A DNA stretch of 64,000 nucleotides from Escherichia virus TH47. Location: sequence record MT446416.1, one strand, 5' to 3'. The notes under the pieces are model-generated. The model saw nothing but the letters and a program-made list of their open reading frames with translations, made no database searches and was not told the origin of the DNA. A program made the position numbers and the translations under genes. Numbering within the stretch: the stretch's first letter is position 1; each line of letters begins with the position of its first letter. This document shows positions 4,472 through 42,278 of this stretch, piece after piece.

Positions 4472-4473
4472 TA

Positions 4474-4971: not shown

Positions 4972-4980
4972 CTCATCTCC

Positions 4981-5409
4981 TTAGTACTGGGAATCTTCAT
5001 CTTCATCGTAGTAATCTTCTTCATCTTCATCTGATGTACCATAGAATTCAAGACCATACGTTTCACACATTTCTTGAATCTTATCAACATCAGTATCTAA
5101 GTAAGAATCAAAATTACCACTAAGACTAACTACATCAATAAACGTTGTAGTATCAGTACTTGCATAGATGATATCATATTTTAATGATTCAACTTTCGAG
5201 TCAATTCTGGTTTGCAATTCATAGATATTAATCCATGAATTAGTGTCAATATTACATCTCCAAACATTAGTATCGTCAGTTTCTAGTTCAGGTATATAGT
5301 CAAGTGAAGATACCATGTCATCCATAATACCATCACCATTCAACAATACATCAATTACATCTAACGTTTCTTGGTCACAGATAAAAGCAATACTAGATCT
5401 TAATTCCAT
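4981..5409 (-). CDS. hypothetical acidic protein (142 aa, C-terminal DEDEEDYYDEDEDSQY tail)
   Basis: ORF preceded by AAGGAAG and by an extended -10 element (TGATATAAT) about 36 nt upstream. Confidence 0.5.
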   Translation of the reverse strand: MELRSSIAFICDQETLDVIDVLLNGDGIMDDMVSSLDYIPELETDDTNVWRCNIDTNSWINIYELQTRIDSKVESLKYDIIYASTDTTTFIDVVSLSGNFDSYLDTDVDKIQEMCETYGLEFYGTSDEDEEDYYDEDEDSQY

Positions 5410-5444
5410 TTTTATTTTACTTCCTTGTTGTTGTCATACGACAC

Positions 5445-5474
5445 ATTATATCATGTACAGCGGGATTATCCCGC
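5445..5474 (-). promoter_or_regulatory. extended -10 promoter (TGATATAAT) upstream of gene 4981..5409
   Basis: Third exact TGATATAAT in the window, about 36 nt before the ATG, adjacent to the hairpin ACAGCGGGAttaTCCCGCTGT. Confidence 0.4.
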
Positions 5475-6950
5475 TGTATTTTCCCAATCCTTAACATCTA
5501 TGATACTATGAGGATATTGTGCTTCCTTATAGTATTGTAAACGTTCACGTAAGTGTTTTGCACTATATTTGTTTGTACCACTGATATCAAAGATTTCCAC
5601 GTGGTCTTTGTCTTCTGCACGACGCAACCCACGACCAATGGACTGTATTGTACGAACGAAGCTTTTTCCTGGTTCGATTAGAACGACATTATACAAACGA
5701 GAAATACTGATACCAGTACTTGCTACCCCATAGGTTGCAATGAGTATTTTGTTATCAGCCCAGCGAATTTCACCATATGAAGATTCACGGTCTTTCTTTT
5801 TGGTTTCCCCACGAACAAATTCTGACTTAGGAATACCCAAAAATTCACAAAGCAATTCACCAGCTTCAAGTCTATCAACCAGTACTAAAGTGTTTCCAGA
5901 TTCTGCTAACGCACCTATCAGTGATGCTACATATGCCATTCTATCACGGTCAGTAACTAAGTACTTTAATTCTTCTGCATATGACGCGAACTTTAAATTA
6001 CTTTTAAGTTTAATACAGTTCACATTACATGTGCTTAGTATTTTTTTATCTTGTAATTCTTTAGCTGTGATTTTAAATATCACATCACCAACGTTACATT
6101 TAATCTTCGCAGCGACAACTTGGTCTTTAGGGATTGTACCAGTTAATCCCCAGCGAAGTGGGACGTTATTCATAACTTTAGAGAGTACTTGAACTAATGC
6201 ATCACCACCAGCACCTTGACACTCATCGACAATCACACAAACCACACCATCAATAAAGTCATGAACGTCTTGTTCAGTCAGTTCAATTTCACCTTTCTTT
6301 GTTTTCTTCCACAAAGAGTTGAATGACTGCCAGGTAGTTATTGTGTGTTGGTGACCAAAGTCTTTCTGTGCACCATAGAACACTCCAGTGTCAAGACCAC
6401 ACATAACATAGTCATCATATGTTTGCTGCACCAAATCAGTACTAGGTACGATAATCACAGAACGTCCATACTCTTGTACCTTCTTGGATAATGCCGCTGT
6501 GATGAGCGTTTTACCAGCCCCTGTAGCTGCTAATAATAAACCATGTGGGTTTGCAAGGCAAGCATTAACTGCGTTCACCTGATGCTCTCTGAGCTTGATT
6601 GACTTACCTTCCATGTGGTGTCCAGCACCAAACACAACATCACTAAAAATATCTTCATCAATTGGTTCAAAATTGAATCCATAATTGACACGATGATCTT
6701 CAAGTTCAATATCAATTTTTGCTTCATCTAAGATTGGCAACAACTTATCCAACATGTGGTAGTAAGTACTGCCACCTAAGTTCATAAACTGTACCTTACC
6801 ATCCCAACGACCAATACGACCAGCAGGGGTGAACTTAGCGTATGGAAGTACATATTCTGTTGCACGAATCATCTTCTGACGAATTGAGGGATCTAGTCCC
6901 TCAAATTTACAATTAACCTCGTCCAGTAAGGTTAGCTTACAAGTTTTCAT
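5466..6950 (-). CDS. SF2 DNA helicase, UvsW-like
   Basis: Walker A LLAATGAGKT, DExx-type box IVDECQGAGG and C-terminal helicase motifs (TGISISRLYNVVL, QSIGRGLR); 494 aa. Confidence 0.65.
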   Translation of the reverse strand: MKTCKLTLLDEVNCKFEGLDPSIRQKMIRATEYVLPYAKFTPAGRIGRWDGKVQFMNLGGSTYYHMLDKLLPILDEAKIDIELEDHRVNYGFNFEPIDEDIFSDVVFGAGHHMEGKSIKLREHQVNAVNACLANPHGLLLAATGAGKTLITAALSKKVQEYGRSVIIVPSTDLVQQTYDDYVMCGLDTGVFYGAQKDFGHQHTITTWQSFNSLWKKTKKGEIELTEQDVHDFIDGVVCVIVDECQGAGGDALVQVLSKVMNNVPLRWGLTGTIPKDQVVAAKIKCNVGDVIFKITAKELQDKKILSTCNVNCIKLKSNLKFASYAEELKYLVTDRDRMAYVASLIGALAESGNTLVLVDRLEAGELLCEFLGIPKSEFVRGETKKKDRESSYGEIRWADNKILIATYGVASTGISISRLYNVVLIEPGKSFVRTIQSIGRGLRRAEDKDHVEIFDISGTNKYSAKHLRERLQYYKEAQYPHSIIDVKDWENTAG

Positions 6951-7795: not shown

Positions 7796-7824
7796 ATAGA
7801 AAAAGGACGCGAAATGCGTCCTTA
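7796..7824 (-). terminator. terminator downstream of the 7822..8559 endonuclease gene
   Basis: Minus-strand reading AAGGACGCatttcGCGTCCTT followed by tttctat. Confidence 0.55.
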
Positions 7825-8559
7825 TGATATATTTTCTAGAACAATTTGAATATGATCTTCATCGTATTTTATTCTCAACAATTTAATATTATTTTGATTA
7901 CAATAATCATTCTTTATTTTATCATTTTTCTGAGTTAGTTTTAGTTTTTCTTTACCACCCCAACCACATGATTCAAAATGTTGAAGACCATCATATTCAA
8001 TACACATATTAAACGTTGGAAGATAAAAATCAAATCTCAAAGGAAGTATATTTTTACAATCATCAAACGTTTTTTCCATTACACACGATACATTTTTCAT
8101 ATCCAAAATGTTACGTATGTCTTTAACTGCCTTTGACATTTTATCAGATATTGCACATTTAATACAACCCTTTCCTGATAAATGGTCATTTGCTCTTTGT
8201 AAAAAATCACCATGTATTTTACAAGTTATAGTGAGTTTTTGTTTGTTGTTTTTGCCATATACAACTTTATCATAGTTATATCTATCACTATGTATTTTAT
8301 AAGATTCCTCAATGAAGGTTTCAGTTGTATGTTTGGAACGTCTTGAACATTTAGTACATCCAGCACCTCTGTAATGGACTTTAACAAATTGCTCATAATC
8401 ACCATGTATTTTACAAGTTACAATAACTTTTGAATTTACATTCTCATATACTGTTTTATCATATAAGAATATATCACCATAAATTGATTTTGATTTTTCT
8501 ATAAATTGTTCTGTTGTTTGCTTTTTATTATTTGCACCCATAACCGTATCACCTAACAA
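7822..8559 (-). CDS. putative homing endonuclease (tandem Cys/His repeats plus C-terminal Vsr/DUF559-like nuclease fold)
   Basis: Two N-terminal repeats (TTExFIEx...YDKxVY...CKIHGDF...GxGCxKC) and C-terminal FDFYLP...CIEYDGLQHF resembling a restriction-endonuclease-like fold. Flanked by hairpin terminators on both sides. Confidence 0.5.
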   Translation of the reverse strand: MLGDTVMGANNKKQTTEQFIEKSKSIYGDIFLYDKTVYENVNSKVIVTCKIHGDYEQFVKVHYRGAGCTKCSRRSKHTTETFIEESYKIHSDRYNYDKVVYGKNNKQKLTITCKIHGDFLQRANDHLSGKGCIKCAISDKMSKAVKDIRNILDMKNVSCVMEKTFDDCKNILPLRFDFYLPTFNMCIEYDGLQHFESCGWGGKEKLKLTQKNDKIKNDYCNQNNIKLLRIKYDEDHIQIVLENIS

Positions 8560-24229: not shown

Positions 24230-24268
24230 ACATTGTATCACTACTTACGATTTTGTTCCAAAAAACTT

Positions 24269-24787
24269 TTAAACAGGTTTAACAGGGAACGAAAACTTCT
24301 TCTTACTAAATTCAGATGTTGTTAGAGATGATAGCTCAAGAACATATGCTTTCAACTTAGGAAACAGTTCTATTTCATAATCAGTTGCTACCTCAAGATC
24401 TATCGCCATCTTAATGTTATTCAACTCATTAATTGCTACAGTTCTTAATTCTTGGTGCTCAGATGATAGACGTTTGATCTTTTCATCAGTAGATTCAACA
24501 TAATCAGAAATTTTACTTCCATCATAGATTTTACCAACTACTTCATCTTCATCTCCATCATGCTCCAACTCAGAAACACTGTATCCATACGGTACTAACA
24601 ATGTTACATCATATGATGCTTGTGCAATATAACCATCGTCAGAGTACTGAACTTTTAAAGTATCTTGTCTGAATTCGTTTTGACAATCATACCAGTCAAT
24701 ACCCTCATCTGACAATAGATAAAGAACATTATCTCCATGTTTTTTTTCTACTGGTATATATTTTTTGAAATTTGTATACGTTTTCAT
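24269..24787 (-). CDS. hypothetical protein; possible tail fibre assembly chaperone by position only
   Basis: 172 aa, start overlapping the stop of the upstream tail-fibre-like gene; followed by a hairpin terminator. No diagnostic motif. Confidence 0.35.
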   Translation of the reverse strand: MKTYTNFKKYIPVEKKHGDNVLYLLSDEGIDWYDCQNEFRQDTLKVQYSDDGYIAQASYDVTLLVPYGYSVSELEHDGDEDEVVGKIYDGSKISDYVESTDEKIKRLSSEHQELRTVAINELNNIKMAIDLEVATDYEIELFPKLKAYVLELSSLTTSEFSKKKFSFPVKPV

Positions 24788-24788
24788 A

Positions 24789-26417
24789 TTAAGACTCCAC
24801 TACTACGTTAGTCCATACACCATTTACAAGTTTTTGTGTATATCTCCAACTCAAACCTTCAACGTGTGTACCTGAACTACCATTTACTGAAATAAACAAC
24901 CCATCAAGTGTAGCACCTTCAGGTACATAGTTCCAAGAAGAATCAGGAACACTTCGCGTAGTTGTTCTTTTACTTAAACGAACATCTTGTACAGCACCTA
25001 GTGTTAAAGTTACGTTACCGTTTACATCAGCGTTGTTACCGTTAATAGATCTTACGATGTTTTTACTGGCAACAGTTGCAGTGTTTCCAGAAATAGACAA
25101 TGATGCACCAGTAACTGATGGGGCATAAAGTACACCAGATGAGTTAATTGTAACTTCCGAACCACCATTACTTCTCAAACGTAATGTATTTGTTGATGAA
25201 CTATGATAAATTGCTGCACGTTCAGTAGTTCCTGCCGCGTTACGGAAGTAAAGTACCAAAGATGTGTCGTCTGAACGAATTGTTGCACTGTTAGCAATAG
25301 TCAATGAACCAGTCATTACATCACCAGTTTTCAGTACATAACGGGTGTTTGCAACTTTTTCACTCAATGCAACGTTAGACTCAGCAATGTTATATAAGTA
25401 TGCCACATTAAAGTGTGGTACGTCAATATTGCTAATTCCGTGGGTATGTGCTTGTCCACTACCAACGGTATTGGTTGAACCACTGAATCTATGCACGTGA
25501 TCAGGTGCTTCGTTAATGTTATTAATTACAGTTGGAATACCATTATCTCTACTCGATGTTATTGCATTTAGACCACTACGGTCATTACCTTTTAGTGCTT
25601 GGCTATGACCATGACGACCAGCAGCACCAGTAGTTCCACTGAAACTAAATGAGTGCGGTGGAAGTTGATCAATTGATATCGCAGTACCACTAATTGATGC
25701 ACTACTTGCAATCACACTATCAGTTTTAGTTACGCCTGATGTGGTAATGCCTTTCAAGTATGCTTCTTGGTTAAGATTTGGAACTTGTTTAGTGATTGTA
25801 CCATTTTCACCAACCCATTGCCACCACATTCCATCAGCAAAACACCAACCATCAGAAGTTTTCCACGGAGAACCTTGTGAACCATTACGACCACTTTGAC
25901 CATTAGTTGCTCCAGACATCTGTTCACGAATACTAGCAACAGTTTGTCCAGAAGTCAATGAGTACTGGGTAATTGCACCAGGCTTCATTGAAGTGTAAAG
26001 ACCTGTTGGTCCAGTACCGCTACTTGATTGAGTAGGGAATACGATATTTAAATTCGTACCACTAATGCTCGCACTTGGGACAGCACTACTACTATATGTT
26101 ACTGTTTCAACTTTTAAATTCAATTTACGGTTCACTTCATCGAGTGAAATACGGATTGGTTCAAGAATTGTATCAGTATCATATACTGCAATCCAACTTG
26201 TACCGTTGTGGTATTTTAACACCAACTCATTTCTATCAAATACCATAGCACCTTGCTCACCTGCTGGCAATGCCTGTACGGGTAAAATGACAGAAGATGA
26301 ATTAAAACGAATAGGTCTTGGATTAGTTGGTGTACCACCAAGCACTATTAGTTCTAAAGATCCATTAGCACCAGTACTAGTCATAGTATCCAGTGGGTTA
26401 TTAAAACTTATGCTCAT
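24789..26417 (-). CDS. tail fibre-like protein
   Basis: 542 aa, Gly/Ser/Thr/Asn-rich with collar-like N-terminus and His-containing segments (HGHSQ, HVHRFSGSTNTVGSGQAHTHGISN) reminiscent of T4 fibre metal-binding repeats. Confidence 0.5.
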   Translation of the reverse strand: MSISFNNPLDTMTSTGANGSLELIVLGGTPTNPRPIRFNSSSVILPVQALPAGEQGAMVFDRNELVLKYHNGTSWIAVYDTDTILEPIRISLDEVNRKLNLKVETVTYSSSAVPSASISGTNLNIVFPTQSSSGTGPTGLYTSMKPGAITQYSLTSGQTVASIREQMSGATNGQSGRNGSQGSPWKTSDGWCFADGMWWQWVGENGTITKQVPNLNQEAYLKGITTSGVTKTDSVIASSASISGTAISIDQLPPHSFSFSGTTGAAGRHGHSQALKGNDRSGLNAITSSRDNGIPTVINNINEAPDHVHRFSGSTNTVGSGQAHTHGISNIDVPHFNVAYLYNIAESNVALSEKVANTRYVLKTGDVMTGSLTIANSATIRSDDTSLVLYFRNAAGTTERAAIYHSSSTNTLRLRSNGGSEVTINSSGVLYAPSVTGASLSISGNTATVASKNIVRSINGNNADVNGNVTLTLGAVQDVRLSKRTTTRSVPDSSWNYVPEGATLDGLFISVNGSSGTHVEGLSWRYTQKLVNGVWTNVVVES

Positions 26418-26458: not shown

Positions 26459-26782
26459 CTATAGCAAGTCGTTTTCCATATCGTCAAGAACAGAATCGAC
26501 GATGTTCGCTGCTATCTTCTTAGGCATCTTGAACCACTCGGTGTTAGGTTGCCTTACTGCGTTCATTTGTTTTAGTCTTTTGTGAATTTCTTTCTCTGCT
26601 AAACGTGCATCTTCAAAGTGTACTTCATGGTATACCACAAAATCTCTAAAAGGTGTAGCAGTTTGATATGTCCTTAAACGTTCTGTCATTTCAGATTTAC
26701 TGGTAAATCCTATCTTAACATAATCAGGCCATGCATCATTTACTATAACATAACATATCTGTGACATAGAAAATATCTCCAT
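26459..26782 (-). CDS. T5orf172 / GIY-YIG-like domain protein (freestanding)
   Basis: ICYVIVNDAWPDYVKIGFT...ERLRTYQTATPF...EIHKRL...EWF fits the T5orf172 domain pattern. A shorter start (MSQICY, 26767) has a better SD. Confidence 0.55.
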   Translation of the reverse strand: MEIFSMSQICYVIVNDAWPDYVKIGFTSKSEMTERLRTYQTATPFRDFVVYHEVHFEDARLAEKEIHKRLKQMNAVRQPNTEWFKMPKKIAANIVDSVLDDMENDLL

Positions 26783-26806
26783 CAGTAATATGAAGATATT
26801 TATTAA

Positions 26807-27166
26807 TCAAGTAATTCGGAAATTTACCCCAGCATCAATTAGGCGTTGGAATGGGTTTTGTGGCTCGAATTCAGAAGGAGTTTTTGAAATGTTCAGTACT
26901 GGAGCATCAGCATGTAACTTTGACATACGTTCTTTGTACTTATCTAAGTATTCTTCATACAACATATCTTCAGTGTTACTATTAAGTATGTCTTCGATAA
27001 ATGAATCAATACTATAGTCCAGTCTATCATCATTATAATACAAAGTTTCACTAGCTTCATCATAACCAACTAAAGTTCCGTATGGAACATTAATCTCAAT
27101 TTTTGAGTACTGACTCTTTAAGTACTCTTCTTTCTTAAAAATGTATACAGTTAACATCCGTGTCAA
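26807..27166 (-). CDS. hypothetical protein (119 aa)
   Basis: ORF within the accessory island between the tail fibre and capsid genes. Confidence 0.45.
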   Translation of the reverse strand: MTRMLTVYIFKKEEYLKSQYSKIEINVPYGTLVGYDEASETLYYNDDRLDYSIDSFIEDILNSNTEDMLYEEYLDKYKERMSKLHADAPVLNISKTPSEFEPQNPFQRLIDAGVNFRIT

Positions 27167-27180
27167 CTCCTTATGGTTGT

Positions 27181-28179
27181 TTACTTAGTTTTCCATTCTT
27201 TTATCATGGTTAGTACTAAATCCAAATCTTCTTCATTGAAAGTTTCAGTGTATCCATCTGGAAAATCTTCTTTTTCAACAACTTTATTAGTTATAGTACC
27301 TTTTATTTTTTGTTCGAGATCTTGTGCTTCTCTTCGTGTTTCAAAGTCCTCAATTAACAAAACATCGTGTTCAGTATGAGCATAATGTTTTTGTTGACTA
27401 ATTCTACGGTTGATATCATTAGTTACACCCAATTTATAAAATACACCTTTTGTTGGGTGAGTTATTTTTTGTACATATAAAGTTGATGGCTCACGCATAG
27501 TACCTTCACTTTCGTTACATACTGGACAATGTTCTCTATCAGTTTTTCTGAAATTCGCTAGGGTTTTATGTATTTTTACATCTTTATGTAGTGTGCATCC
27601 AAAAACACATTCAGTATGGTGATAATCATAAGTTTCGTCATACTGAAAATCATCATAGGTGTACTTGTCACCATGAATTTTCTTCAACTCTTTCGTTATA
27701 TCATTAGCATCTTTTCGTTTGGAAGAAATCGTTCGTTCTTTACCACACTCATAACATCCACTAAACCTACCTAAAAATTCATCAAATGATAAGACGAAAT
27801 GCTTCTTATGTTTTTTACAATTAAATTCAACATCGGATTTTTTCTTACCTATAAATTTAACTACTTGTACGAATTCCCAAGGTTTGTTCTCATTTGCTAT
27901 CCTAGTTAAACATGCGTGTTTGTATTGGCTGGCAGTTTTTGGGACACTAGTTCCATTTTGTTGTTTCATTATACCACAATGTTGACATTTTTTTCTCGAT
28001 GAAAAGTTGTCTATACTACATGACAATATAGAAGACTTACAATCCCAGCATGTGTATGAAAAATTACTTTTGGCATTTTTAAAATTAATTATTTTATGAA
28101 ATACAATGTTTAAGTTATTAGTTTTTATTATGTTAAGTATCTTATCCACATAATGTTGTTCATCTAATTTTGAAGCCAT
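27181..28179 (-). CDS. putative homing endonuclease-like protein (Cys-rich repeats plus C-terminal T5orf172-like domain)
   Basis: 332 aa with several CxxC pairs, a KKIHGDKYTYDD repeat like that in 7822..8559, and C-terminal YKLGVTND...GYTETF as in 39092..40114. Confidence 0.5.
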   Translation of the reverse strand: MASKLDEQHYVDKILNIIKTNNLNIVFHKIINFKNAKSNFSYTCWDCKSSILSCSIDNFSSRKKCQHCGIMKQQNGTSVPKTASQYKHACLTRIANENKPWEFVQVVKFIGKKKSDVEFNCKKHKKHFVLSFDEFLGRFSGCYECGKERTISSKRKDANDITKELKKIHGDKYTYDDFQYDETYDYHHTECVFGCTLHKDVKIHKTLANFRKTDREHCPVCNESEGTMREPSTLYVQKITHPTKGVFYKLGVTNDINRRISQQKHYAHTEHDVLLIEDFETRREAQDLEQKIKGTITNKVVEKEDFPDGYTETFNEEDLDLVLTMIKEWKTK

Positions 28180-28244
28180 AATTAAAATCCTCGGTTACAA
28201 TAAAATAATAATATCACAAAATGATGCACACCACAAGTATATTT

Positions 28245-28275
28245 ACAAAAGAAAAGGGACTCCGAAGAGTCCCTA
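28245..28275 (-). terminator. rho-independent terminator downstream of the capsid gene
   Basis: Minus-strand reading GGGACTCttcgGAGTCCC followed by ttttcttttg. Confidence 0.65.
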
Positions 28276-28317
28276 TTGTTTTTAATTTCTTGATTAAATC
28301 TTTTAAATCTATTACAA

Positions 28318-29493
28318 TTACATGAAAGTAACGTTTTTGATAGCGATTTTGCTGTAGTAGTCAGCAGCATTACCAAGAGATGAAGTACTGTCGGTTAGCT
28401 GAACGTAGCCATAGCGTGTTAAAAATGTCGTGACTAGCTCACCAGTGTTAGGGTCCATTACAGTACCGGAAGCCATTAGTGGGATGTATGGGCAATAGAA
28501 CACACCAGCATCAGTTTCAGCATTACCTTTATAACCAATCAAAATGTCCTCGACATCGCTGGCATACGTGTCTACAAAAATACGCATGGTGCTGTTTAGA
28601 GTACCAACAAATTTAACGTTAGTTGGAGCTTCGAAAGTACCTTCAGTAGTACGTGCAAAACTAGAAGTAGTTGCAGACTGTAGAATGGTTAGAGCGGTTG
28701 GAGAAACAACAGCCCAGTTCGCAGCACCACGTTTGGTACGACGAGCAACTTCGTTCGCTTGACGGTTGATTAGGGTAGCTAGAGCAGCGTGCTCGTCACC
28801 AACGAAGGTCGCAACACCAGTAACTTTAGATTGGTCATAAGTTACAGCAGCAGCACCAGGTAGTGCACGTAGACGGCTTAGTAGCTCTTGGTCGATTTCA
28901 ACGGTAACTTCTTGAGCGATTGCAGCCATTAGTTCAGCTTCAACGTCGATACCATGTTGGGATTGTGCATCTTGTGCAGATTCAACAGTCCAACGTGCAG
29001 ATAGACGACGAGATTTCGCTTCAACAGTTTCACGTAGAATACGGATGTTAACGCGACGACCCATAGTACCTTCTAGTTGACTAGTAGGAGCAGCTTGTGG
29101 GTTGCTGTTGTCTGCGTTTAGGTCACCAGTATAAGACTTAGCGATTTTGTATGGAGAAAGCATTTCTTCACCAGCGATAACACCAGGAGCGTTGTCAGCA
29201 TATTGAACACGTAGGGTGTGGATCTGACCAACTGGGCCAGTCATTGGCTGAACACCGATGATTTCGTTAGCGATTACGGTTGGCATAACACGACGCATAA
29301 TTGGTAGAATCACTTTGTTTAGAGTAGCGATGTTACCAGCGGTGGTTGCACCAGAAGTAGCAGATTCGTTTAGCATTAGTTTACGATGGTTATCAAGTAC
29401 GGTTTCCATTACGGACTTACGAGTACCTTGTAGACCTTCAACTAGTTTCTCTTTAACTGCTACCCATTTGGATTCATTTAGTAGTTGTGACAT
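28318..29493 (-). CDS. 23: major capsid protein, gp23 family (compact, 391 aa)
   Basis: IANEIIGVQPMTGPVGQIHTLRVQY and VEAKSRRLSARWTVESAQDAQSQHGIDVEAEL match T4 gp23 blocks; TATAAATA about 45 nt upstream; terminator downstream. Confidence 0.9.
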   Translation of the reverse strand: MSQLLNESKWVAVKEKLVEGLQGTRKSVMETVLDNHRKLMLNESATSGATTAGNIATLNKVILPIMRRVMPTVIANEIIGVQPMTGPVGQIHTLRVQYADNAPGVIAGEEMLSPYKIAKSYTGDLNADNSNPQAAPTSQLEGTMGRRVNIRILRETVEAKSRRLSARWTVESAQDAQSQHGIDVEAELMAAIAQEVTVEIDQELLSRLRALPGAAAVTYDQSKVTGVATFVGDEHAALATLINRQANEVARRTKRGAANWAVVSPTALTILQSATTSSFARTTEGTFEAPTNVKFVGTLNSTMRIFVDTYASDVEDILIGYKGNAETDAGVFYCPYIPLMASGTVMDPNTGELVTTFLTRYGYVQLTDSTSSLGNAADYYSKIAIKNVTFM

Positions 29494-29537: not shown

Positions 29538-29545
29538 TATTTATA
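29538..29545 (-). promoter_or_regulatory. late promoter box TATAAATA upstream of the major capsid gene
   Basis: Minus-strand reading tttttcagttcTATAAATAatatcatact, about 45 nt before the capsid ATG at 29493. Confidence 0.55.
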
Positions 29546-29583: not shown

Positions 29584-30699
29584 TTATTTTTTATTGATAC
29601 CAGAAAGAACATCGAGTTCTTTTAGGAATGCCATATCGTCAGCGGTCATTTCTTCGCTTTCAACAATAGCCTGACGGTTGCCAGTGATTACTTTACCTTC
29701 TGCAAGAGTTCTCTTAGCGGAAGACTGAACTGCTTGACGAGTGGTAGCAGATTCATTTACTTTAGTACCGTTAAGTACTGACTTATGGTACTTGCTGAAA
29801 TCGTCTTTAAGCTTTTCTGTAGGAGAAGTAGCTAGAAGGGATTCCATAATTTGTTTCTGTTGTGTAGTTAGTGGCTTAACTAGTTCAGACATAATCGCAT
29901 TACGAGCTTGTGAATCTTCCATAATACGTAGTTTGGTTTTAGCAGCTTTAACTTCACTTACAGTTTCATTTAGTTCTTTCTTAACTTGAGCAATTTCGTC
30001 TTCTTTAGACTTGATTGATTCAGTTAGGGAACGTAGTAGTGAATTCTCATTAAATTGTTTGACATTAAACTCTTGAGCAAATGCTTCAAAGATTTTACGA
30101 CCAAACATATTTTGTTTTGCTTCAACAAGATCTTCTTTCAAAGCGTATAGGTTTTTCTGAGTAGTTTCTGCAATATATTTAGCAGCACTTTCAGATGTAC
30201 GTTTGATGAAGTTGTTACGTGCTTCAGCAATTTGACGGGAGCCTTCAGCTAGTAGTTTAACGCGAGTTTCAACTAGTTGACGTTTCTCGATGTGGAATTC
30301 TTTTAGCTCTTCTGCTAGGATACCGTTAGAGAAATTAACGAATTTACCCATGCATTCTTGAAGATGCTTACGTTCTTTACGCATTTGTTTAACTTCTTCA
30401 GCCAAAACAGAGTTAGAAAACGCAGAGAAATTACTTAGGGTTTTGCGGAGAGTTACACGATCTTCTACAAGACGTTTTTTCTCTTCATATACTGCACCCA
30501 TTTCTTCAGCGATAACTTGAGTAACCATAGTATTTAGACCTTCGGTTAGCTCAGACAAATCTTGTTTGTAGCGGCCTTTCATTTCTTCACGCATTTCTGC
30601 GGCAAGTGTGTTTTTTTCTTCATTCCATGCTTCCTGAATTAGCTGTTTTGCCTCATCAGAAAGAGATGATTCTTTTAGAAGCTTTTCTAATTTAGACAT
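29584..30699 (-). CDS. 22: prohead scaffold / core protein (gp22-like)
   Basis: 371 aa, highly charged coiled-coil composition; sits between the protease and capsid genes as in T4; TATAAATA upstream. Confidence 0.7.
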   Translation of the reverse strand: MSKLEKLLKESSLSDEAKQLIQEAWNEEKNTLAAEMREEMKGRYKQDLSELTEGLNTMVTQVIAEEMGAVYEEKKRLVEDRVTLRKTLSNFSAFSNSVLAEEVKQMRKERKHLQECMGKFVNFSNGILAEELKEFHIEKRQLVETRVKLLAEGSRQIAEARNNFIKRTSESAAKYIAETTQKNLYALKEDLVEAKQNMFGRKIFEAFAQEFNVKQFNENSLLRSLTESIKSKEDEIAQVKKELNETVSEVKAAKTKLRIMEDSQARNAIMSELVKPLTTQQKQIMESLLATSPTEKLKDDFSKYHKSVLNGTKVNESATTRQAVQSSAKRTLAEGKVITGNRQAIVESEEMTADDMAFLKELDVLSGINKK

Positions 30700-30746: not shown

Positions 30747-30754
30747 TATTTATA
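30747..30754 (-). promoter_or_regulatory. late promoter box TATAAATA upstream of the scaffold gene
   Basis: Minus-strand reading aaaaaTATAAATAtttgtatg about 50 nt before the ATG at 30699. Confidence 0.5.
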
Positions 30755-38600: not shown

Positions 38601-39095
38601 ATGAAGAAAAGATTAAAAGATAGTAAAGAAGCTGCAAACTATCGAAATGAATTACTAAAGAAGCAAAAAGGAATTGATCCTATAATTAAGGAACCAATAA
38701 CTAAGCCAGTACTTGATCACTATCACTTCGAGAATCAACACTGTCGCGGGGTACTCCAGAATGAGATAAACGCCTTTGAGGGTAAGGTTTCCAACGCATG
38801 GAACCGATATGGAAAGCATTTAACTGATATGCCATTACATGAAGTACTAAGAAATCTGGCAGATTATCTTGAAAAGAACAATAACATTCCACCTGAAGAG
38901 CAAGTCATACATCACACTGCACTAACTGTGGATGTTAATAAGTTTAAAAGGCTTCCAGCAACACAGCAAAACGCGATTCTGGAAGGGTTAGGAGTTGTCC
39001 CTGGTAGTAACGTCAAGGAGAGAACTAAGCAAGCCAGAAGGCTCATTAAGGACGGTAAATTAAATATGGTAGATGTAAAAAGAGATACAAAATGA
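38601..39095 (+). CDS. 49: endonuclease VII-like protein (gp49 family), lacking the canonical zinc-ligand Cys pairs
   Basis: LDHYHFENQHCRGVLQNEINAFEGKVSNAWNRYG...LHEVLRNLADYLEK aligns with T4 endo VII HLDHDHELNG...VRGLLCNLCNAAEGQMKHKFNRSG...YLEWLENLLTYLK; 164 aa versus 157 aa. Confidence 0.65.
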   Translation: MKKRLKDSKEAANYRNELLKKQKGIDPIIKEPITKPVLDHYHFENQHCRGVLQNEINAFEGKVSNAWNRYGKHLTDMPLHEVLRNLADYLEKNNNIPPEEQVIHHTALTVDVNKFKRLPATQQNAILEGLGVVPGSNVKERTKQARRLIKDGKLNMVDVKRDTK

Positions 39096-40114
39096 AAATA
39101 TCATTACCAAACGAAATAAACTTAAAACACATAAATTACAATACAAAAATGCCACAAGAATATTTTGATGATTTAAGTAAGAGATTATCAAAATATGACA
39201 TTATTTTTAATGGATTTATAATTGAAGATGAATGGAAAGGTAATAACACGTTAACTTCTATAGAATGTGAAGGAAACCTCTACAACAACTATCGAATTAA
39301 TAAATTATACAGATATATTAAACGTATGGATACAAAAGGATATCAGAAACCTAAAGGTTTTAACTTAACCCCTGAACTATTGGTACAAAACGTCAACGAT
39401 GAATGTATAAAACGTGGTGGTAAGATTGAATTTATTGGTTATAAACAATTTAATGGTGCAAAAACATATTTGGAATTGAAATGTAATGATTTGGAATCAC
39501 ATGATGAACCATATGAGTGGTGTTCAACGATTTATGATAGTTTTGTCGGAAACAATAGACATTTGAATGGTTGTCATAAATGTTCAGGTAGATATCATTA
39601 CACTATAGAAGAACTTAACAATAATATAAATTATTTTTGTGAAACACGTGGATTCGTAAACCCAGTATTGATAACTAATGAAACTATGAATGGTGTTAAT
39701 AGTATTGTTTCATTCACCTGTCATTGTGGTGAGAAAGCAACGATGACATATGATAGTTTATCACGTGCTCGTTTTTGTATATTATGCAGCGAAGGTAGTT
39801 ATAAACAATATATTCCTGGTTCATTGTATGTATTAGAAGTATATAAAAATGATAAACATGTGGCATATAAATTTGGTATATCAAACTATGTCCCAAAACG
39901 CCTCATGGAATATGGAAAATCTCCATGTAATGTTAAGATTATTCATCAATATGATTTTGAAGATGGTTCTATTCCATATAAAATTGAAAATAAAATAAAA
40001 AACTCATTACCAATCAGATATCTTACCAAAAATGAGTTCGGTGTAGGATATACAGAAACGATAGATACAACTTTATACGAAGATTTAATTAATATTATAA
40101 AAAAGGGAGCATAA
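39092..40114 (+). CDS. putative homing endonuclease-like protein (Cys-rich N-terminal region plus C-terminal T5orf172-like domain)
   Basis: 340 aa; C-terminus YKFGISNYVPKRLMEY...GYTETI parallels 27181..28179 and the T5orf172 pattern; multiple CxxC pairs; stop lies in the loop of a bidirectional terminator. Confidence 0.5.
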   Translation: MKISLPNEINLKHINYNTKMPQEYFDDLSKRLSKYDIIFNGFIIEDEWKGNNTLTSIECEGNLYNNYRINKLYRYIKRMDTKGYQKPKGFNLTPELLVQNVNDECIKRGGKIEFIGYKQFNGAKTYLELKCNDLESHDEPYEWCSTIYDSFVGNNRHLNGCHKCSGRYHYTIEELNNNINYFCETRGFVNPVLITNETMNGVNSIVSFTCHCGEKATMTYDSLSRARFCILCSEGSYKQYIPGSLYVLEVYKNDKHVAYKFGISNYVPKRLMEYGKSPCNVKIIHQYDFEDGSIPYKIENKIKNSLPIRYLTKNEFGVGYTETIDTTLYEDLINIIKKGA

Positions 40115-40130: not shown

Positions 40131-42278
40131 TTAATAGATATCATCAATTGTACAGTAACTTATAGTACTAAAACCATCTTCTTTAGTTACTTTAAGTATA
40201 TGTTCAGTCTTAGAAACTAGTTCTTCTCTATGAGAGATGATATATACATTTTTATTTCTGATAGCAGCCATGTCATTGAAGATTGACCACACTTTAACAA
40301 CACCACTTGAATCAAGACCAACATCACAAGCTTCATCTAGTGCTATTAGATTGATACTTTGGTATAATGACTCATATGTATCACGGAAAGCACATGATAA
40401 AGCAATGTTTACCCTTGTACGCTCACCACGACTAAGCTGTTTATAGTCAAAGTACTGACCACTTTTCTCAATTTCTACACTCAAATCATTCAAGAACACA
40501 ACATTATGTTCAGAACCACACATATCAATGTAATATTGAAGACGTGTATTCAGATACGAAATGTTTTGTTCAATAATACGCTTACGGACATAAGAATCCT
40601 TGTTTAACAACAATTTAACCAAGAAATCTTGGTGATTTGCCATCTTATCAAGGTTATTATAGTCACTATAGTCGATTGGTACTAATGAATCGGTAGTAAG
40701 TGTATTAATTTGTCCAATAAATGTGTTAGTAGTTTTCAATTCACGATCTAATTGCTGTGATAATGAAGTTACTGTCATTTCTAACTCTTTTACTTCAGAT
40801 TTATTCAATGTATCTGGTACTTCTTGAAGAACATGTGCGTTCAGTTCTTCATATGATGACATAAGTTCATTAGCATAGATGTTAATTTGCTCTTCTTCAC
40901 TCTTTTTAATAAGTTCTTGAAGCTTATGCTCATGCATTTGTGCTTCAGTTAGTGTAGAATAGAATGTCACAGGCTTAGGTGGCATATCAAAAATCTCAAT
41001 ACTATCAATTTCCTGAAGTATTGTTTCAATTTCAGAAGTGGAACTATCAATTTTCGATTGAAGTTCATTAATAGTATTTTGAATTTTATCTTTAATAGAC
41101 GAAGTATGTTCATTATGTTCTAATTCGGACATACAAAGTGGACATTTACTACTCTCCACTGTTGCTAATTTGTCCACCTCAGCACGTAACGAACTCTCAT
41201 GACCATTTAAAGCCACCTTTAATGCGTTAAGTTTTTGTTCTTTGAAACGTTTTTGGTTATTATTCTCTTTTAGAATACCCTCCAATTGTTTCCATATCTC
41301 CAACTCATTGTGATTTTCTAATTCAGTACTGATATCAATAGTTTTTAGCTTATCAATACTTACATTTAATGCTAATTTTGCTGTTGCTAGTTCACGGTCA
41401 TATGCATCATACTTCAAAGCTAACTCTTGCACACGTCTTTCTATTTGATCACGAGCAGCATTATGAATAAGAGCTTTCTCTTTCACTTCTGCCAAATCAT
41501 AGAGATCGTTGAAGTCTAAAGTTTTGTAGATATTCAATTCTTCAGTCAACTTAGATACTCTATTATTTTTATCAATCTCAAATTGGTTAGCTTGTTCTTG
41601 TAATGATTCAATACTTTTTTGAATACGTTCATTACTTGCAGCCACAGTTTCAATTTTGAACTTTTCTTGTTCAGCTAAACGTTTAGAATCTTTATACATA
41701 TCCTTTAATAGTTCAGCTTTCTCTGTTAATTGTGTGATGCCCAGAAGTTCCTCAATCATATCACGTTGTTTCTGTGATGATAATGCAAGAAACGGCTCTA
41801 CGTTAGCATTAAGTACTACAATATGTTCAAATAGTAGTTGAGAAATCCCAAGAATCTCGTTTAGATCTTCTTGTGTATCTTTCTTCTCCCCTCTTGACTC
41901 ATCTTCGACCTTATTATCTTTACCTAATGTAATAAAGTTGAAATACGTGGGACTTCTCCCACGCTCGACGAGATATTGTACACCATCTTTCTCGAACTCA
42001 ACAGATACTTCACAGTTTTTAGCATTAGTTTTATTAACTAAGTTTGGAATTTTGATATCGTTACCAATACTTTTTCCAAACAAACCAAAAACTAAACCTT
42101 GAATGATGGCACTTTTACCAACACCATTACGGCGACCGGAACTATCACCACCTTCAATAACTGCATCATTGTTTTGACCAAGAACTAACGATATATCAGC
42201 ACCAGACAAATCAATTACTTGTGGTGCATTGCCAAATGAAAAGAAGTTCCTCATTGATATACGTGTAATGTTTAGCAC
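40131..42278 (-). CDS. 46: SbcC/Rad50-like recombination ATPase (gp46-like)
   Basis: N-terminal Walker A GRRNGVGKSAI, long central coiled coil with CPLC zinc hook, C-terminal signature/Walker B region (LDEACDVGLD). Confidence 0.85.
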   Translation of the reverse strand: MLNITRISMRNFFSFGNAPQVIDLSGADISLVLGQNNDAVIEGGDSSGRRNGVGKSAIIQGLVFGLFGKSIGNDIKIPNLVNKTNAKNCEVSVEFEKDGVQYLVERGRSPTYFNFITLGKDNKVEDESRGEKKDTQEDLNEILGISQLLFEHIVVLNANVEPFLALSSQKQRDMIEELLGITQLTEKAELLKDMYKDSKRLAEQEKFKIETVAASNERIQKSIESLQEQANQFEIDKNNRVSKLTEELNIYKTLDFNDLYDLAEVKEKALIHNAARDQIERRVQELALKYDAYDRELATAKLALNVSIDKLKTIDISTELENHNELEIWKQLEGILKENNNQKRFKEQKLNALKVALNGHESSLRAEVDKLATVESSKCPLCMSELEHNEHTSSIKDKIQNTINELQSKIDSSTSEIETILQEIDSIEIFDMPPKPVTFYSTLTEAQMHEHKLQELIKKSEEEQINIYANELMSSYEELNAHVLQEVPDTLNKSEVKELEMTVTSLSQQLDRELKTTNTFIGQINTLTTDSLVPIDYSDYNNLDKMANHQDFLVKLLLNKDSYVRKRIIEQNISYLNTRLQYYIDMCGSEHNVVFLNDLSVEIEKSGQYFDYKQLSRGERTRVNIALSCAFRDTYESLYQSINLIALDEACDVGLDSSGVVKVWSIFNDMAAIRNKNVYIISHREELVSKTEHILKVTKEDGFSTISYCTIDDIY

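What the first reader, a model, noticed from the sequence alone, without database searches (positions are those of the whole stretch)
26459..28179. Accessory island (T5orf172 protein, unknown ORF, Cys-rich T5orf172 fusion) inserted between the tail fibre and major capsid genes
A 1.7 kb block of three small minus-strand genes interrupts the structural cluster just after the capsid gene terminator. Two of them carry T5orf172 / GIY-YIG-like domains and none has an obvious structural role. This looks like a hotspot of mobile-element insertion; the 119 aa middle ORF is uncharacterised cargo and could be an accessory function such as anti-defence.
Basis: inference. Interest (0 to 1): 0.4.

Follow-up and report, generated by a model that had tools for sequence, protein, structure and literature searches.

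The report
Homing-endonuclease slot beside jumbo-phage capsid gene
Only one of the three genes, a zinc-finger/T5orf172 homing-endonuclease gene just after the capsid gene of a 121Q-like E. coli jumbo phage, is mobile; the other two are fixed genes of the whole RaK2-like phage group, so this is an ordinary though very clean example of a known kind of selfish phage gene.

Summary
Three minus-strand ORFs lie at 26459-28179, between the tail-fibre gene and the gp23-like capsid gene, just after the capsid terminator. Two carry T5orf172 domains.

- The small T5orf172 gene (ORF107) and the middle ORF (really 116 aa, ATG at 27157) sit at this position in every relative examined, across five named genera plus the unclassified Munch group. 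RaK2 lacks ORF107. Both are under purifying selection (dN/dS 0.04-0.13). They are lineage core genes, not cargo.
- Only about 1.06 kb (27188-28245) is variable. In near-identical phages this slot is empty or holds 300-, 305-, 332-, 365- or 368-aa alleles. More distant relatives add an unrelated 552-aa nuclease and a 77-aa remnant.
- The window's occupant has three zinc-finger modules and a C-terminal T5orf172 nuclease domain. This is the homing-endonuclease class described by Barth et al. 2023.
- Next to the slot, the last ~290 nt of the capsid gene carry 60 almost purely synonymous variable sites, against 7 in the first 780 nt. The haplotype blocks partly track the endonuclease allele, as expected of a co-conversion tract.

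The middle ORF belongs to a tiny family with no sequence or fold relative, and its function remains unknown. Verdict: new member of a known kind, modest interest.

The parts
27181..28179 (-). HEG332: free-standing homing-endonuclease-like gene. It has three N-terminal zinc-finger modules (aa 44-68, 121-145, 195-221) and a C-terminal T5orf172 (GIY-YIG superfamily) nuclease domain (aa ~235-329).
   Evidence: Pfam T5orf172 E=1.3e-5, weak CapR E=0.025. phrog_681 'endonuclease' E=4e-40. Zinc-finger modules and retained Tyr/Gly/Arg/Glu motif positions. Distant homologues are annotated as ICP1 'tcgB putative homing endonuclease'. Presence/absence and allele polymorphism. dN/dS 0.12-0.15.
27188..28245 (.). 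The variable block (the actual mobile cassette): HEG332 plus its 5' leader. It is bounded on the right by the capsid terminator and on the left by a 30-bp junction (27158-27187) shared with the 365-aa allele cassettes.
   Evidence: blastn breakpoints at 27157/27187 and 28246-28249 against nine relatives. Base-level junction alignments A1 and A2.
28255..28274 (-). Intrinsic terminator of the capsid gene (AGGGACTC-TTCG-GAGTCCCT plus T-run). It is conserved in all relatives and forms the right border of the slot.
28351..28609 (-). Synonymous-polymorphism (co-conversion-like) tract in the 3' end of the capsid gene, gene nt 885-1143. It probably contains or flanks the endonuclease target.
   Evidence: 60 variable sites here against 7 in gene nt 1-780 among nine near-identical phages. 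Codon differences are 25-36 synonymous against 0-1 non-synonymous. The terminal haplotype block is shared by all 365/368-allele carriers, including the divergent 121Q. Variable-site density is 19.3% against 0.8%, Fisher p=6e-29.
28318..29493 (-). Major capsid protein gene (gp23-like): the essential gene next to which the endonuclease gene sits.
   Evidence: PF07068 E=9.5e-90, phrog_138.
26807..27157 (-). It is not part of the mobile cassette.
   Evidence: phrog_15724 E=3e-53. Found in 66 phage records, all RaK2-like jumbo phages. Only 23 representatives among 1.84 billion proteins. dN/dS 0.10-0.13. AF2 model pLDDT 79.5 with no fold neighbour. pI 4.4, no Cys.
26459..26782 (-). ORF107: a conserved stand-alone T5orf172 protein with no DNA-binding domain. 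It is not part of the mobile cassette.
   Evidence: Pfam T5orf172 E=3e-13. 66-69% aa identity to GAP32, BF and XbC2 orthologues at the same position. dN/dS 0.04-0.05. Tyr, Lys-Gly-Thr, Arg and Glu motif positions conserved.

Best explanation
The finding contains two different things.

(1) Window 27188-28245 is a free-standing homing-endonuclease cassette. It sits in the short intergenic space between the capsid-gene terminator and the next conserved gene. Its product, HEG332, is inferred to use three N-terminal treble-clef-type zinc-finger modules to recognise a DNA sequence and a C-terminal T5orf172 (GIY-YIG superfamily) domain to cut it.

During co-infection with a related phage that has an empty slot or a different allele, the enzyme is inferred to cut the rival genome in or near the 3' end of the capsid gene. 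Recombinational repair would then copy the cassette, plus a few hundred bases of adjacent capsid-gene sequence, from the carrier genome. This is 'intronless homing' as shown for the T4 Seg enzymes. It would explain the allele turnover in the slot and the patchwork of synonymous changes in the last ~290 nt of the capsid gene.

Shown here: domain architecture, presence/absence and allele polymorphism at one precise site, purifying selection on the alleles, a degenerate remnant in GAP32, and the co-conversion-like tract linked to allele type. Inferred only: nuclease activity, the position of the cleavage site, and homing itself.

(2) ORF116 and ORF107 are not cargo. They are fixed, vertically inherited genes of the RaK2-like jumbo-phage lineage. 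ORF107 is most likely a domesticated stand-alone T5orf172 nuclease with intact motif residues. ORF116 is an acidic protein with a beta-rich domain followed by a helix, no known relative and no known function. My weakly held guess is that they are expressed together in the late period and that ORF116 is a protein-binding partner or modulator, not an enzyme.

The confidence given (0.75) applies to the two main claims: one mobile endonuclease cassette, and two conserved core genes. My confidence in the specific guesses about what ORF107 and ORF116 do is much lower, about 0.25.
For: Identity of the phage and genes
- The window is an Asteriusvirus-like phage.
- Domain calls.

The slot
- Breakpoints are sharp at 27157/27187 and 28246.
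- Among close relatives (flanks 97-100% identical) the slot is empty (fEgEco12, CMSTMSU) or holds 365 aa (vB_Ec-M-J, Turkey3, WPEC3), 368 aa (BF17), 305 aa (Ecwhy_1, WPEC5), 300 aa (EC.P1) or 332 aa (window).
- Further out it is empty (PBECO4, PHA46, BF, XbC2, fHe-Yen9-03) or holds 365 aa (121Q), 304 aa (Munch), 207+373 aa (SE_PL), 408 aa (RaK2), an unrelated 552-aa DUF7487/REase nuclease (UE-S1), or a 77-aa C-terminal HEG remnant (GAP32).
- HEG332 is only ~30% identical to the 365-aa allele of phages whose flanks are 98% identical.
- Its nearest copies (86% and 77% aa identity) are in the same slot of the more distant SHEFM2K and JNE01.
- HEG332 is itself a mosaic: dS is 0.13 in the nuclease half and 1.26 in the zinc-finger half against SHEFM2K.

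The capsid-gene tract
- 60 of 67 variable sites fall in gene nt 885-1143, and almost all are synonymous.
- Fisher p=6e-29 for the 3' 300 nt against the rest of the gene.
- The terminal haplotype is shared by all five 365/368-allele carriers, including 121Q.

Literature
- Zinc-finger + T5orf172 genes are a described class of putative phage HEGs; 31% of their neighbourhoods contain capsid genes (PMC10448857).
- T5orf172 nuclease activity has been shown for ICP1 Odn, and the E180A mutant is inactive (PMC8263062).
- Free-standing HEGs cut at a distance from their insertion site and leave co-conversion tracts; T4 segD lies between genes 23 and 24 (PMC2988022).

The conserved pair
- Synteny across five named genera plus the unclassified Munch group.
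- dN/dS 0.04-0.13.
- Variable-site density of only 0.9-2.0% in the close clade.
Against: - No T5orf172 HEG has been shown experimentally to home; Barth et al. say so explicitly. Nothing here shows cleavage.
- The capsid 3' tract is polymorphic in empty-slot phages too. Apart from the 365/368 group, the haplotype-to-allele match is imperfect: fEgEco12 (empty) shares a block with the 305-allele carriers, and PBECO4 (empty) with SHEFM2K (332). The tract could therefore reflect a general recombination hotspot next to the terminator.
- No sampled phage carries the window's exact middle haplotype or a >90% identical copy of the whole HEG332, and IMG/VR holds no close relative. The donor has not been seen.
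- There is no comparable tract on the ORF116 side. That fits a one-sided target but was not tested.
- For the conserved pair, RaK2 keeps ORF116 while an unrelated 244-aa ORF replaces ORF107. This argues against an obligate partnership.
- The function of ORF116 is a guess.
Confidence: 0.75

Rival explanations
1. One reading: the whole 1.7-kb, three-gene block is one accessory island inserted between structural genes, and the middle ORF is its cargo (for example an anti-defence gene).
For: All three genes are non-structural by annotation and lie between two structural genes. G+C is low (28-33%) across the block. Two of the three carry a nuclease domain typical of mobile genes. ORF116 is acidic (pI 4.4), as some DNA-mimic anti-restriction proteins are (own knowledge).
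Against: ORF116 and ORF107 are present at the same position in all examined relatives, across five named genera plus the unclassified Munch group. The homology breakpoints enclose only 27188-28245. Purifying selection and divergence that tracks the phage phylogeny indicate vertical inheritance. ORF116 has no PADLOC, Pfam or fold match.
Confidence: 0.05
2. HEG332 is no longer (or not only) a mobile endonuclease. It is a domesticated DNA-binding regulator of the neighbouring late genes, for example modulating capsid-gene or ORF116/ORF107 expression. The satellite protein CapR, derived from the zinc-finger domain of T5orf172 HEGs, represses the ICP1 capsid operon in this way, and I-TevI autorepresses.
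For: HEG332 lies directly next to the capsid gene and its terminator. It has CapR/DUF723/DUF4379-type zinc fingers. The CapR precedent is documented (PMC10448857). The alleles are under purifying selection (dN/dS 0.12-0.15), which selfish genes in decline often are not.
Against: Close relatives thrive with an empty slot, so it is dispensable. The nuclease-motif residues are retained. Alleles of ~30% identity replace one another at one site, and an unrelated nuclease family also occupies the slot. This fits selfish turnover better than a conserved regulatory role. The co-conversion-like tract also fits turnover.
Confidence: 0.1
3. ORF116 and ORF107 are the two halves of an ancient homing endonuclease that split. 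ORF116 would be the former N-terminal DNA-binding part and ORF107 the T5orf172 nuclease. The pair would still act as a two-subunit site-specific nuclease, or as a domesticated derivative.
For: The gene order ORF116 then ORF107, 24 nt apart on the same strand, mirrors the N-terminal binding domain / C-terminal T5orf172 order of the HEG class. ORF107 lacks any DNA-binding domain yet keeps the catalytic motif positions and is under strong constraint. Barth et al. describe a frameshift-split HEG in ICP1, gp115/gp116.
Against: ORF116 has no Cys and no zinc-finger or other DNA-binding signature. It is acidic (pI 4.4) and matches nothing in Pfam, PHROGs (other than its own family), PDB or BFVD. RaK2 retains ORF116 without ORF107. 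ORF116 evolves far faster than ORF107: 33% against 67% aa identity to BF.
Confidence: 0.12
4. The cluster of synonymous variation at the capsid-gene 3' end has nothing to do with the endonuclease. It reflects a general recombination hotspot or relaxed synonymous constraint at the gene end.
For: Empty-slot phages are polymorphic there too, and the haplotype-to-allele association is perfect only for the 365/368 group. The tail-fibre gene also shows 4% variable sites.
Against: The density is 24-fold higher than in the rest of the same gene and starts abruptly ~290 nt from the slot. Between more distant phages, synonymous differences are spread along the whole gene (per-bin counts), so the 3' end is not intrinsically less constrained. 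Block-wise sharing between otherwise divergent genomes (121Q and vB_Ec-M-J) indicates imported segments. Empty sites are expected to carry such tracts after HEG loss or after selection for cleavage-resistant targets (PMC2988022).
Confidence: 0.12

Closest known systems
T5orf172 homing-endonuclease genes with N-terminal CapR/DUF723/DUF4379 zinc-finger repeats (ICP1 gp165/gp174-type, 'tcg' genes; Barth, Dunham & Seed 2023, PMC10448857)
   Same: HEG332 has the same architecture: repeated zinc-finger modules followed by a C-terminal T5orf172 domain. It shows direct though distant sequence similarity to ICP1 'tcgB' (24.5% over 89% of the length, E=2e-11). Its position next to a capsid gene, its variable presence among close relatives, and the intragenic shuffling between the binding and nuclease halves also match.
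   Different: The host lineage is different: an E. coli RaK2-like jumbo phage, which that study does not mention ('jumbo' and '121Q' each occur 0 times in it). Pfam scores for the zinc-finger models are below threshold in HEG332 (CapR E=0.025). Several allele lineages and an unrelated nuclease compete for one slot.
T4 free-standing GIY-YIG endonucleases (SegA-G), especially segD between genes 23 and 24; 'intronless homing' (Edgell, Gibb & Belfort 2010, PMC2988022)
   Same: It is a free-standing endonuclease gene in an intergenic space directly downstream of the gp23-type capsid gene of a T4-related myovirus. It belongs to the GIY-YIG superfamily. A co-conversion tract in the neighbouring essential gene is the signature shown for SegG, SegF and SegB.
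   Different: Seg proteins carry the GIY-YIG domain at the N-terminus and the DNA-binding domain at the C-terminus; here the order is reversed and the nuclease is of the T5orf172 subfamily. segD is antisense to its neighbours, whereas HEG332 is co-oriented. There is no detectable sequence homology to Seg proteins.
ICP1 Odn (gp88), a T5orf172 nuclease with an acquired RepA_N DNA-binding domain (Barth et al. 2021, PMC8263062)
   Same: It shares the T5orf172 catalytic domain with conserved Arg and Glu. Odn is the biochemical proof that this domain cleaves DNA.
   Different: Odn is a domesticated anti-satellite weapon with a different DNA-binding domain. Nothing suggests that HEG332 or ORF107 targets a satellite.
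T4 endonuclease II (DenA), a stand-alone GIY-YIG-family nuclease (comparison for ORF107; from my own knowledge, not tested here)
   Same: It is a small stand-alone GIY-YIG-superfamily protein without a separate DNA-binding domain, fixed in a T4-related lineage.
   Different: No sequence similarity was tested or found. ORF107 is of the T5orf172 subfamily and sits among late structural genes. Its activity is unknown.

Membership tests
T5orf172-type homing-endonuclease genes (Barth et al. 2023 class) | C-terminal T5orf172/MUG113 (GIY-YIG superfamily) domain | tested here: met
   PF10544 E=1.3e-5, 26.1 bits (cutoff 20), aa 235-329. MUG113 E=3.8e-4, 21.4 bits, just under its 22.3-bit cutoff.
T5orf172-type homing-endonuclease genes (Barth et al. 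2023 class) | N-terminal zinc-finger DNA-binding module(s) of the CapR/DUF723/DUF4379 type, often repeated | tested here: inconclusive
   Three CxxC/H...CxxC modules are evident in the sequence, and phrog_681 matches over aa 5-330. The only Pfam hit is CapR at E=0.025, 15.2 bits, below the 24.2-bit cutoff. Sister alleles in the same slot do pass or approach the cutoffs: DUF4379 27.4 bits in the 121Q allele, CapR 42.6 bits in the SE_PL allele.
T5orf172-type homing-endonuclease genes (Barth et al. 2023 class) | Retention of the catalytic Arg and Glu of the GIY-YIG core | tested here: met
   The alignment of T5orf172 domains shows invariant Tyr, Lys-Gly-Thr, Arg and Glu columns in HEG332, its sister alleles and the ORF107 family. 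The correspondence to Odn E180 is inferred from the motif, not from a direct alignment with Odn.
Homing endonuclease gene (functional definition) | Variable presence at one precise site among closely related genomes | tested here: met
   The slot is empty or holds 300-, 305-, 332-, 365- or 368-aa alleles in phages with 97-100% identical flanks, with identical junctions.
Homing endonuclease gene (functional definition) | Co-conversion of flanking markers with the gene | tested here: inconclusive
   There is a strong, one-sided, synonymous mosaic tract in the capsid-gene 3' end, with perfect linkage for the 365/368 allele group. Linkage is imperfect for the other alleles, and the evidence is observational only.
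Homing endonuclease gene (functional definition) | Site-specific cleavage of the gene-less allele and super-Mendelian inheritance in crosses | not testable with these tools
   This needs biochemistry and phage crosses. It has not been shown for any T5orf172 HEG according to PMC10448857.
Homing endonuclease gene (functional definition) | Degenerate copies at the same site, as expected from the invasion-decay-loss cycle | tested here: met
   GAP32 gp251 (77 aa, in the slot) aligns with the C-terminal 51 residues of HEG332 at 45% identity, E=1e-12.
Mobile accessory island / cargo (as claimed for ORF116 and ORF107) | Patchy distribution among relatives and boundaries that enclose the genes | tested here: not met
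   Both genes are present and syntenic across five named genera plus the unclassified Munch group. Breakpoints exclude them. dN/dS is 0.04-0.13.
Known anti-defence or defence protein families (for ORF116) | Sequence or fold similarity to a described family | tested here: not met
   No hit in PADLOC or Pfam. The best PDB Foldseek hit has E=0.82. BFVD returns only its own orthologues. No dedicated anti-defence library was available, so this covers only the libraries at hand.

The most novel reading that the evidence does not exclude
The conserved ORF116-ORF107 pair may be a domesticated module. In this reading a T5orf172 nuclease with no DNA-binding domain, descended from a homing endonuclease that once occupied this locus, has been fixed for a lineage-wide function in RaK2-like jumbo phages, such as degrading rival or host DNA or processing DNA around head filling. 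ORF116, from a family with no known relative, would be its targeting or inhibitory partner. The adjacent slot would then be a natural arena in which at least five endonuclease lineages compete for one target in an essential gene.
Probability: 0.2. Interest if true: 0.55.

Novelty: new member of a known kind. Interest (0 to 1): 0.3.

Why it matters
Practical points:
- Annotators of Asteriusvirus and other RaK2-like genomes, several of which are candidate therapeutic phages, can label the capsid-proximal gene as a putative T5orf172 homing endonuclease. They should not treat the two small genes as accessory.
- Capsid-gene phylogenies or typing schemes that use the 3' end of the gene will be misled by the mosaic tract.

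Scientific point: homing has never been shown experimentally for T5orf172 endonucleases. This locus offers a favourable test system. The phages are culturable E. coli phages that are nearly identical apart from an empty slot or one of several alleles, and built-in synonymous markers lie in the adjacent essential gene.

The ORF116 family is a small, well-conserved family of unknown function with a confident predicted fold and no relatives.

Tried and rejected
ORF116 homology:
- Pfam and PADLOC found nothing. PHROGs found only its own family.
- The word-indexed search found 13 proteins, all close. The exhaustive HMMER profile search found 23 representatives, all small proteins of the same family.

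ORF116 structure:
- The first AF2 run, with 11 close sequences, was poor (pLDDT 55) and was not used.
- A second run with 17 more diverse sequences gave pLDDT 79.5.
- Foldseek found no PDB neighbour (best E=0.82) and, in BFVD, only its own orthologues.

Other searches that found nothing useful:
- PDB sequence searches with ORF107 and HEG332 gave only chance-level hits.
- A search for a closer donor of HEG332 in IMG/VR found nothing.

Ideas considered and dropped:
- The low G+C of the block as evidence of foreign origin. Neighbouring core genes are similarly AT-rich, and only the capsid gene stands out as GC-rich.
- The sigma-70-like promoter hit inside the end of ORF107 as a reason for retaining ORF107. 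Such hits are no more frequent than in shuffles (9 against 11.2 expected), and strong protein-level constraint explains retention better.
- Exact TATAAATA motifs are not enriched in the window (6 against 7.9 expected), so statements about late promoters remain suggestions.
- ORF107 as a degenerating HEG remnant. This is rejected because dN/dS is 0.04-0.05 and identity across genera is 66-69%.

One paper search failed on a too-short term.
Full report
**What is there**

The window comes from an Asteriusvirus-like (121Q/PBECO4 group) E. coli jumbo myovirus. A 6-kb query around the finding matches 72 phage records. The best are vB_Ec-M-J, Ecwhy_1, WPEC3, fEgEco12, CMSTMSU, BF17 and EC.P1, at 97-98% identity over 81-82% of the query.

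All genes in this stretch are on the minus strand (Pfam and PHROGs). In order of transcription they are:
- scaffold, 29584-30699
- gp23-like major capsid protein, 28318-29493 (PF07068, E=9.5e-90)
- ORF332, 27181-28179
- the middle ORF, 26807-27166
- ORF107, 26459-26782
- tail fibre, 24789-26417 (phrog_13229)
- tail-fibre assembly protein
- a ~100-aa protein
- DNA polymerase

ORF107 is a bare T5orf172 domain (E=3e-13). ORF332 has T5orf172 at aa 235-329 (E=1.3e-5), and phrog_681 'endonuclease' matches over its whole length (E=4e-40). The middle ORF matches only its own PHROG family.

It lies on the minus strand at 28274-28255, with an 8-bp stem, a UUCG loop and a T-run. One correction applies: the conserved start of the middle ORF is the ATG at 27157, giving 116 aa, preceded by AAGGAG.

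**Synteny splits the 'island' in two**

I retrieved the homologous region from 21 relatives. Homologues of ORF116 and ORF107 lie between the capsid gene and the tail-fibre gene in every Asteriusvirus examined. The same is true in:
- Salmonella phages Munch, SE_PL and PHA46
- Cronobacter GAP32 (Mimasvirus)
- Xanthomonas XbC2 (Mimasvirus)
- Serratia BF and Yersinia fHe-Yen9-03 (Eneladusvirus)

In Klebsiella RaK2 (Alcyoneusvirus) ORF116 is kept, but an unrelated 244-aa ORF stands where ORF107 would be.

By tblastn the ORF116 family occurs in 66 phage records, all RaK2-like jumbo phages. ORF107 orthologues are 66-69% identical even in GAP32, BF and XbC2.

Nei-Gojobori estimates within the genus:

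| Gene | dN/dS |
|---|---|
| ORF107 | 0.04-0.05 |
| capsid gene | 0.02-0.05 |
| ORF116 | 0.10-0.13 |

These two genes are therefore vertically inherited core genes of the lineage. They are neither an insertion nor cargo.

**The variable part is one gene-sized slot**

blastn breakpoints against nine relatives are sharp. Homology stops at 27157 in empty-site phages and at 27187 in phages carrying another endonuclease allele. It resumes at 28246-28249, at the terminator (base-level alignments).

Slot contents among phages whose flanks are 97-100% identical to the window:

| Slot content | Phages |
|---|---|
| empty | fEgEco12, CMSTMSU |
| 365 aa | vB_Ec-M-J, Turkey3, WPEC3 |
| 368 aa | BF17 |
| 305 aa | Ecwhy_1, WPEC5 |
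| 300 aa | EC.P1 |
| 332 aa | the window |

Slot contents further out:

| Slot content | Phages |
|---|---|
| empty | PBECO4, PHA46, BF, XbC2, fHe-Yen9-03 |
| 365 aa | 121Q |
| 304 aa | Munch |
| 207 + 373 aa | SE_PL |
| 408 aa | RaK2 |
| 552 aa, a different nuclease type (DUF7487 + REase_MTES_1575) | UE-S1 |
| 77-aa fragment | GAP32 |

The GAP32 fragment aligns with the last 51 residues of HEG332 at 45% identity (E=1e-12). It is a decayed copy.

Most occupants share the zinc-finger (DUF4379/DUF723/CapR) plus T5orf172/MUG113 architecture. They fall into distinct lineages. The 332 type is only 26-31% identical to the 365/368 type (36-37% to the 305 type, over a shorter alignment), and the 365/368, 305 and 300 types are 59-75% identical to one another.

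The window's allele is found elsewhere only in SHEFM2K (85.5% aa identity) and JNE01 (77%). It sits in the same slot in both, but their flanks are only about 83-87% identical to the window. Hence the slot content of the window was acquired by exchange and did not diverge in place.

HEG332 is itself a mosaic. Against SHEFM2K, dS is 0.13 in the T5orf172 half and 1.26 in the zinc-finger half (see also the identity profile). Barth et al. describe this kind of domain shuffling.

**A co-conversion-like tract in the capsid gene**

Against its close relatives the window is ~100% identical on both sides of the slot, except in 28300-28600, where identity drops to 84-95%. The capsid genes of nine near-identical phages were compared directly, since all are 1176 nt with no gaps. 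There are 7 variable sites in gene nt 1-780 and 60 in nt 885-1143. Between the window and each relative, 25-36 codons differ synonymously and 0-1 non-synonymously.

Variable-site density in the close clade:

| Segment | Variable sites |
|---|---|
| capsid gene, last 300 nt | 19.3% |
| capsid gene, rest | 0.8% (Fisher p=6e-29 against the last 300 nt) |
| ORF116 | 2.0% |
| ORF107 | 0.9% |

The variants form blocks shared in a patchwork. The block nearest the slot is identical, bar its last site in BF17, in all five 365/368-allele carriers, including 121Q, whose capsid gene otherwise differs throughout. The window's nearest block matches SHEFM2K (332 allele) and PBECO4 at 14 of 15 sites.

This is what repeated double-strand-break repair from divergent donors would leave, and it is one-sided. 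Free-standing T4 endonucleases cut hundreds of bases from their own gene and drag flanking markers along, which is called intronless homing or marker exclusion. T4 itself has segD between genes 23 and 24 (PMC2988022).

The caveats are these:
- The association is imperfect outside the 365/368 group.
- Empty-slot phages are also polymorphic in the tract.
- The window's middle haplotype has no sampled donor.

**Mechanism and what is known**

HEG332 has three CxxC/H...CxxC modules (aa 44-68, 121-145, 195-221), and each is preceded by a helix-like segment. Its T5orf172 domain keeps the Tyr, Lys-Gly-Thr, Arg and Glu positions shared with its sister alleles and with ORF107.

Literature on the domain and the class:
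- T5orf172 is a GIY-YIG subfamily. Its nuclease activity and its dependence on the conserved Glu were shown for ICP1 Odn (PMC8263062).
- Zinc-finger + T5orf172 genes are a described class of putative phage homing endonucleases. They are frequently next to essential genes, with 31% of neighbourhoods containing capsid genes, and they are variable between isolates with shuffled domains (PMC10448857).
- Those authors note that homing has not been shown experimentally for this class.

HEG332 is distantly but significantly similar to ICP1 'tcgB putative homing endonuclease' (E=2e-11).

I therefore file HEG332 as a new member of that class, in a lineage that paper does not mention. The zinc-finger Pfam scores are sub-threshold in this allele, so that one defining feature rests on sequence motifs and on the sister alleles.

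**The conserved pair**

ORF116 belongs to a family of only 23 representatives among 1.84 billion proteins. It is acidic (pI 4.4) and has no Cys.

With a diverse alignment AlphaFold gives a confident model for aa 1-80 (pLDDT ~90). The model has six short strands and two helices, a disordered linker, and then a short C-terminal motif (NPFQRLIDAGVxFxI) that is strongly conserved in Asteriusvirus and its nearest relatives. Foldseek finds no PDB neighbour (best E=0.82) and, in BFVD, only its own orthologues. PADLOC finds nothing.

Its function is unknown. The lack of invariant polar residues across the family argues against an enzyme, so I guess it is a binding or modulating protein.

ORF107 looks like an intact stand-alone T5orf172 nuclease fixed in the lineage. 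It may be a domesticated descendant of an endonuclease at this locus. The idea that the pair is a split endonuclease is attractive on gene order, but nothing in the ORF116 sequence supports it, and RaK2 keeps ORF116 alone.

A conserved ATAAATA motif, an exact TATAAATA in the Yersinia phage, lies just after the ORF107 stop and upstream of the tail-fibre gene. Exact TATAAATA motifs precede the capsid and scaffold genes. This hints at T4-like late promoters, with the small genes forming the end of a late transcription unit. The motif is not statistically enriched in the window.

**Verdict**

The mobile element is a single ~1.06-kb homing-endonuclease cassette of a known class. The middle ORF is not its cargo. 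Interest is modest: this is a textbook-type phenomenon, shown here with an unusually clean population signature, and it offers a possible experimental system for a homing class that has never been tested.

Noticed in passing
window 38601-40114 (+): Two further putative free-standing endonuclease genes lie on the strand opposite to the adjacent Rad50/gp46-like gene (40131-42278, minus). One is a 164-aa Endonuclease_7-like ORF (38601-39095, E=0.0034). The other is a 340-aa ORF with a C-terminal MUG113/T5orf172 domain (39092-40114; 29% identical to the HEG332 C-terminus, E=7e-10).
   Followed up: partly
window 7822-8559 (-): A 245-aa ORF has a weak DUF723-type zinc-finger match (E=0.007) and weak tblastn similarity to the zinc-finger part of HEG332 (E=0.3-0.5). 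It may be a relative of the endonuclease DNA-binding domain that lacks a nuclease.
   Followed up: no
window 24247-25004; L005 (Turkey3) and L021 (WPEC5): In Turkey3 and WPEC5 the tail-fibre C-terminus and the separate tail-fibre assembly gene are replaced by a single 1710-nt tail-fibre gene, while the flanks stay 95-99% identical. This looks like a host-range module swap two genes away from the endonuclease slot.
   Followed up: no
L013 (GAP32) 4183-4416: GAP32 gp251 (77 aa), in the slot, is a C-terminal remnant of a T5orf172 endonuclease (45% identity to HEG332 aa 279-329, E=1e-12). It is currently annotated as a hypothetical protein.
   Followed up: yes
L006 (UE-S1) 3655-5313: In phage UE-S1 the same slot holds a 552-aa protein of a different nuclease type (DUF7487 E=1.8e-12; REase_MTES_1575 E=7e-5) that is unrelated to the T5orf172 alleles. 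Unrelated selfish nucleases therefore converge on this site.
   Followed up: partly
L012 (RaK2) 4913-5647: RaK2 has an unrelated 244-aa ORF (ORF097, no Pfam hit, no similarity to ORF107) where all other genera have the small T5orf172 gene. ORF116 is kept.
   Followed up: partly
window 29538-29545 (-), 30747-30754 (-), about 26440 (-), 28240-28247 (-): Exact TATAAATA (the T4 late-promoter consensus) lies ~45 nt upstream of the capsid ATG and ~48 nt upstream of the scaffold ATG. 7/8 variants lie upstream of the tail-fibre gene (core ATAAATA conserved across genera) and directly after the capsid terminator, at the right edge of the variable block. The motif is not enriched overall (6 against 7.9 expected).
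   Followed up: partly
window 27158-27187: The 332- and 365-type cassettes share the stop-codon position and a 30-bp 3' junction that supplies the AAGGAG ribosome-binding site of ORF116, although the proteins are only ~30% identical. Empty-site phages have a different sequence there (GGAG site). Whichever form is present therefore provides ORF116's translation signals.
   Followed up: partly
L007 (PHA46) 3528-3783: In Salmonella phage PHA46 the ORF116 homologue is annotated as two short ORFs (168 and 96 nt). This is either a frameshift or truncation or a sequencing error. It is the only case seen of possible loss of ORF116.
   Followed up: no
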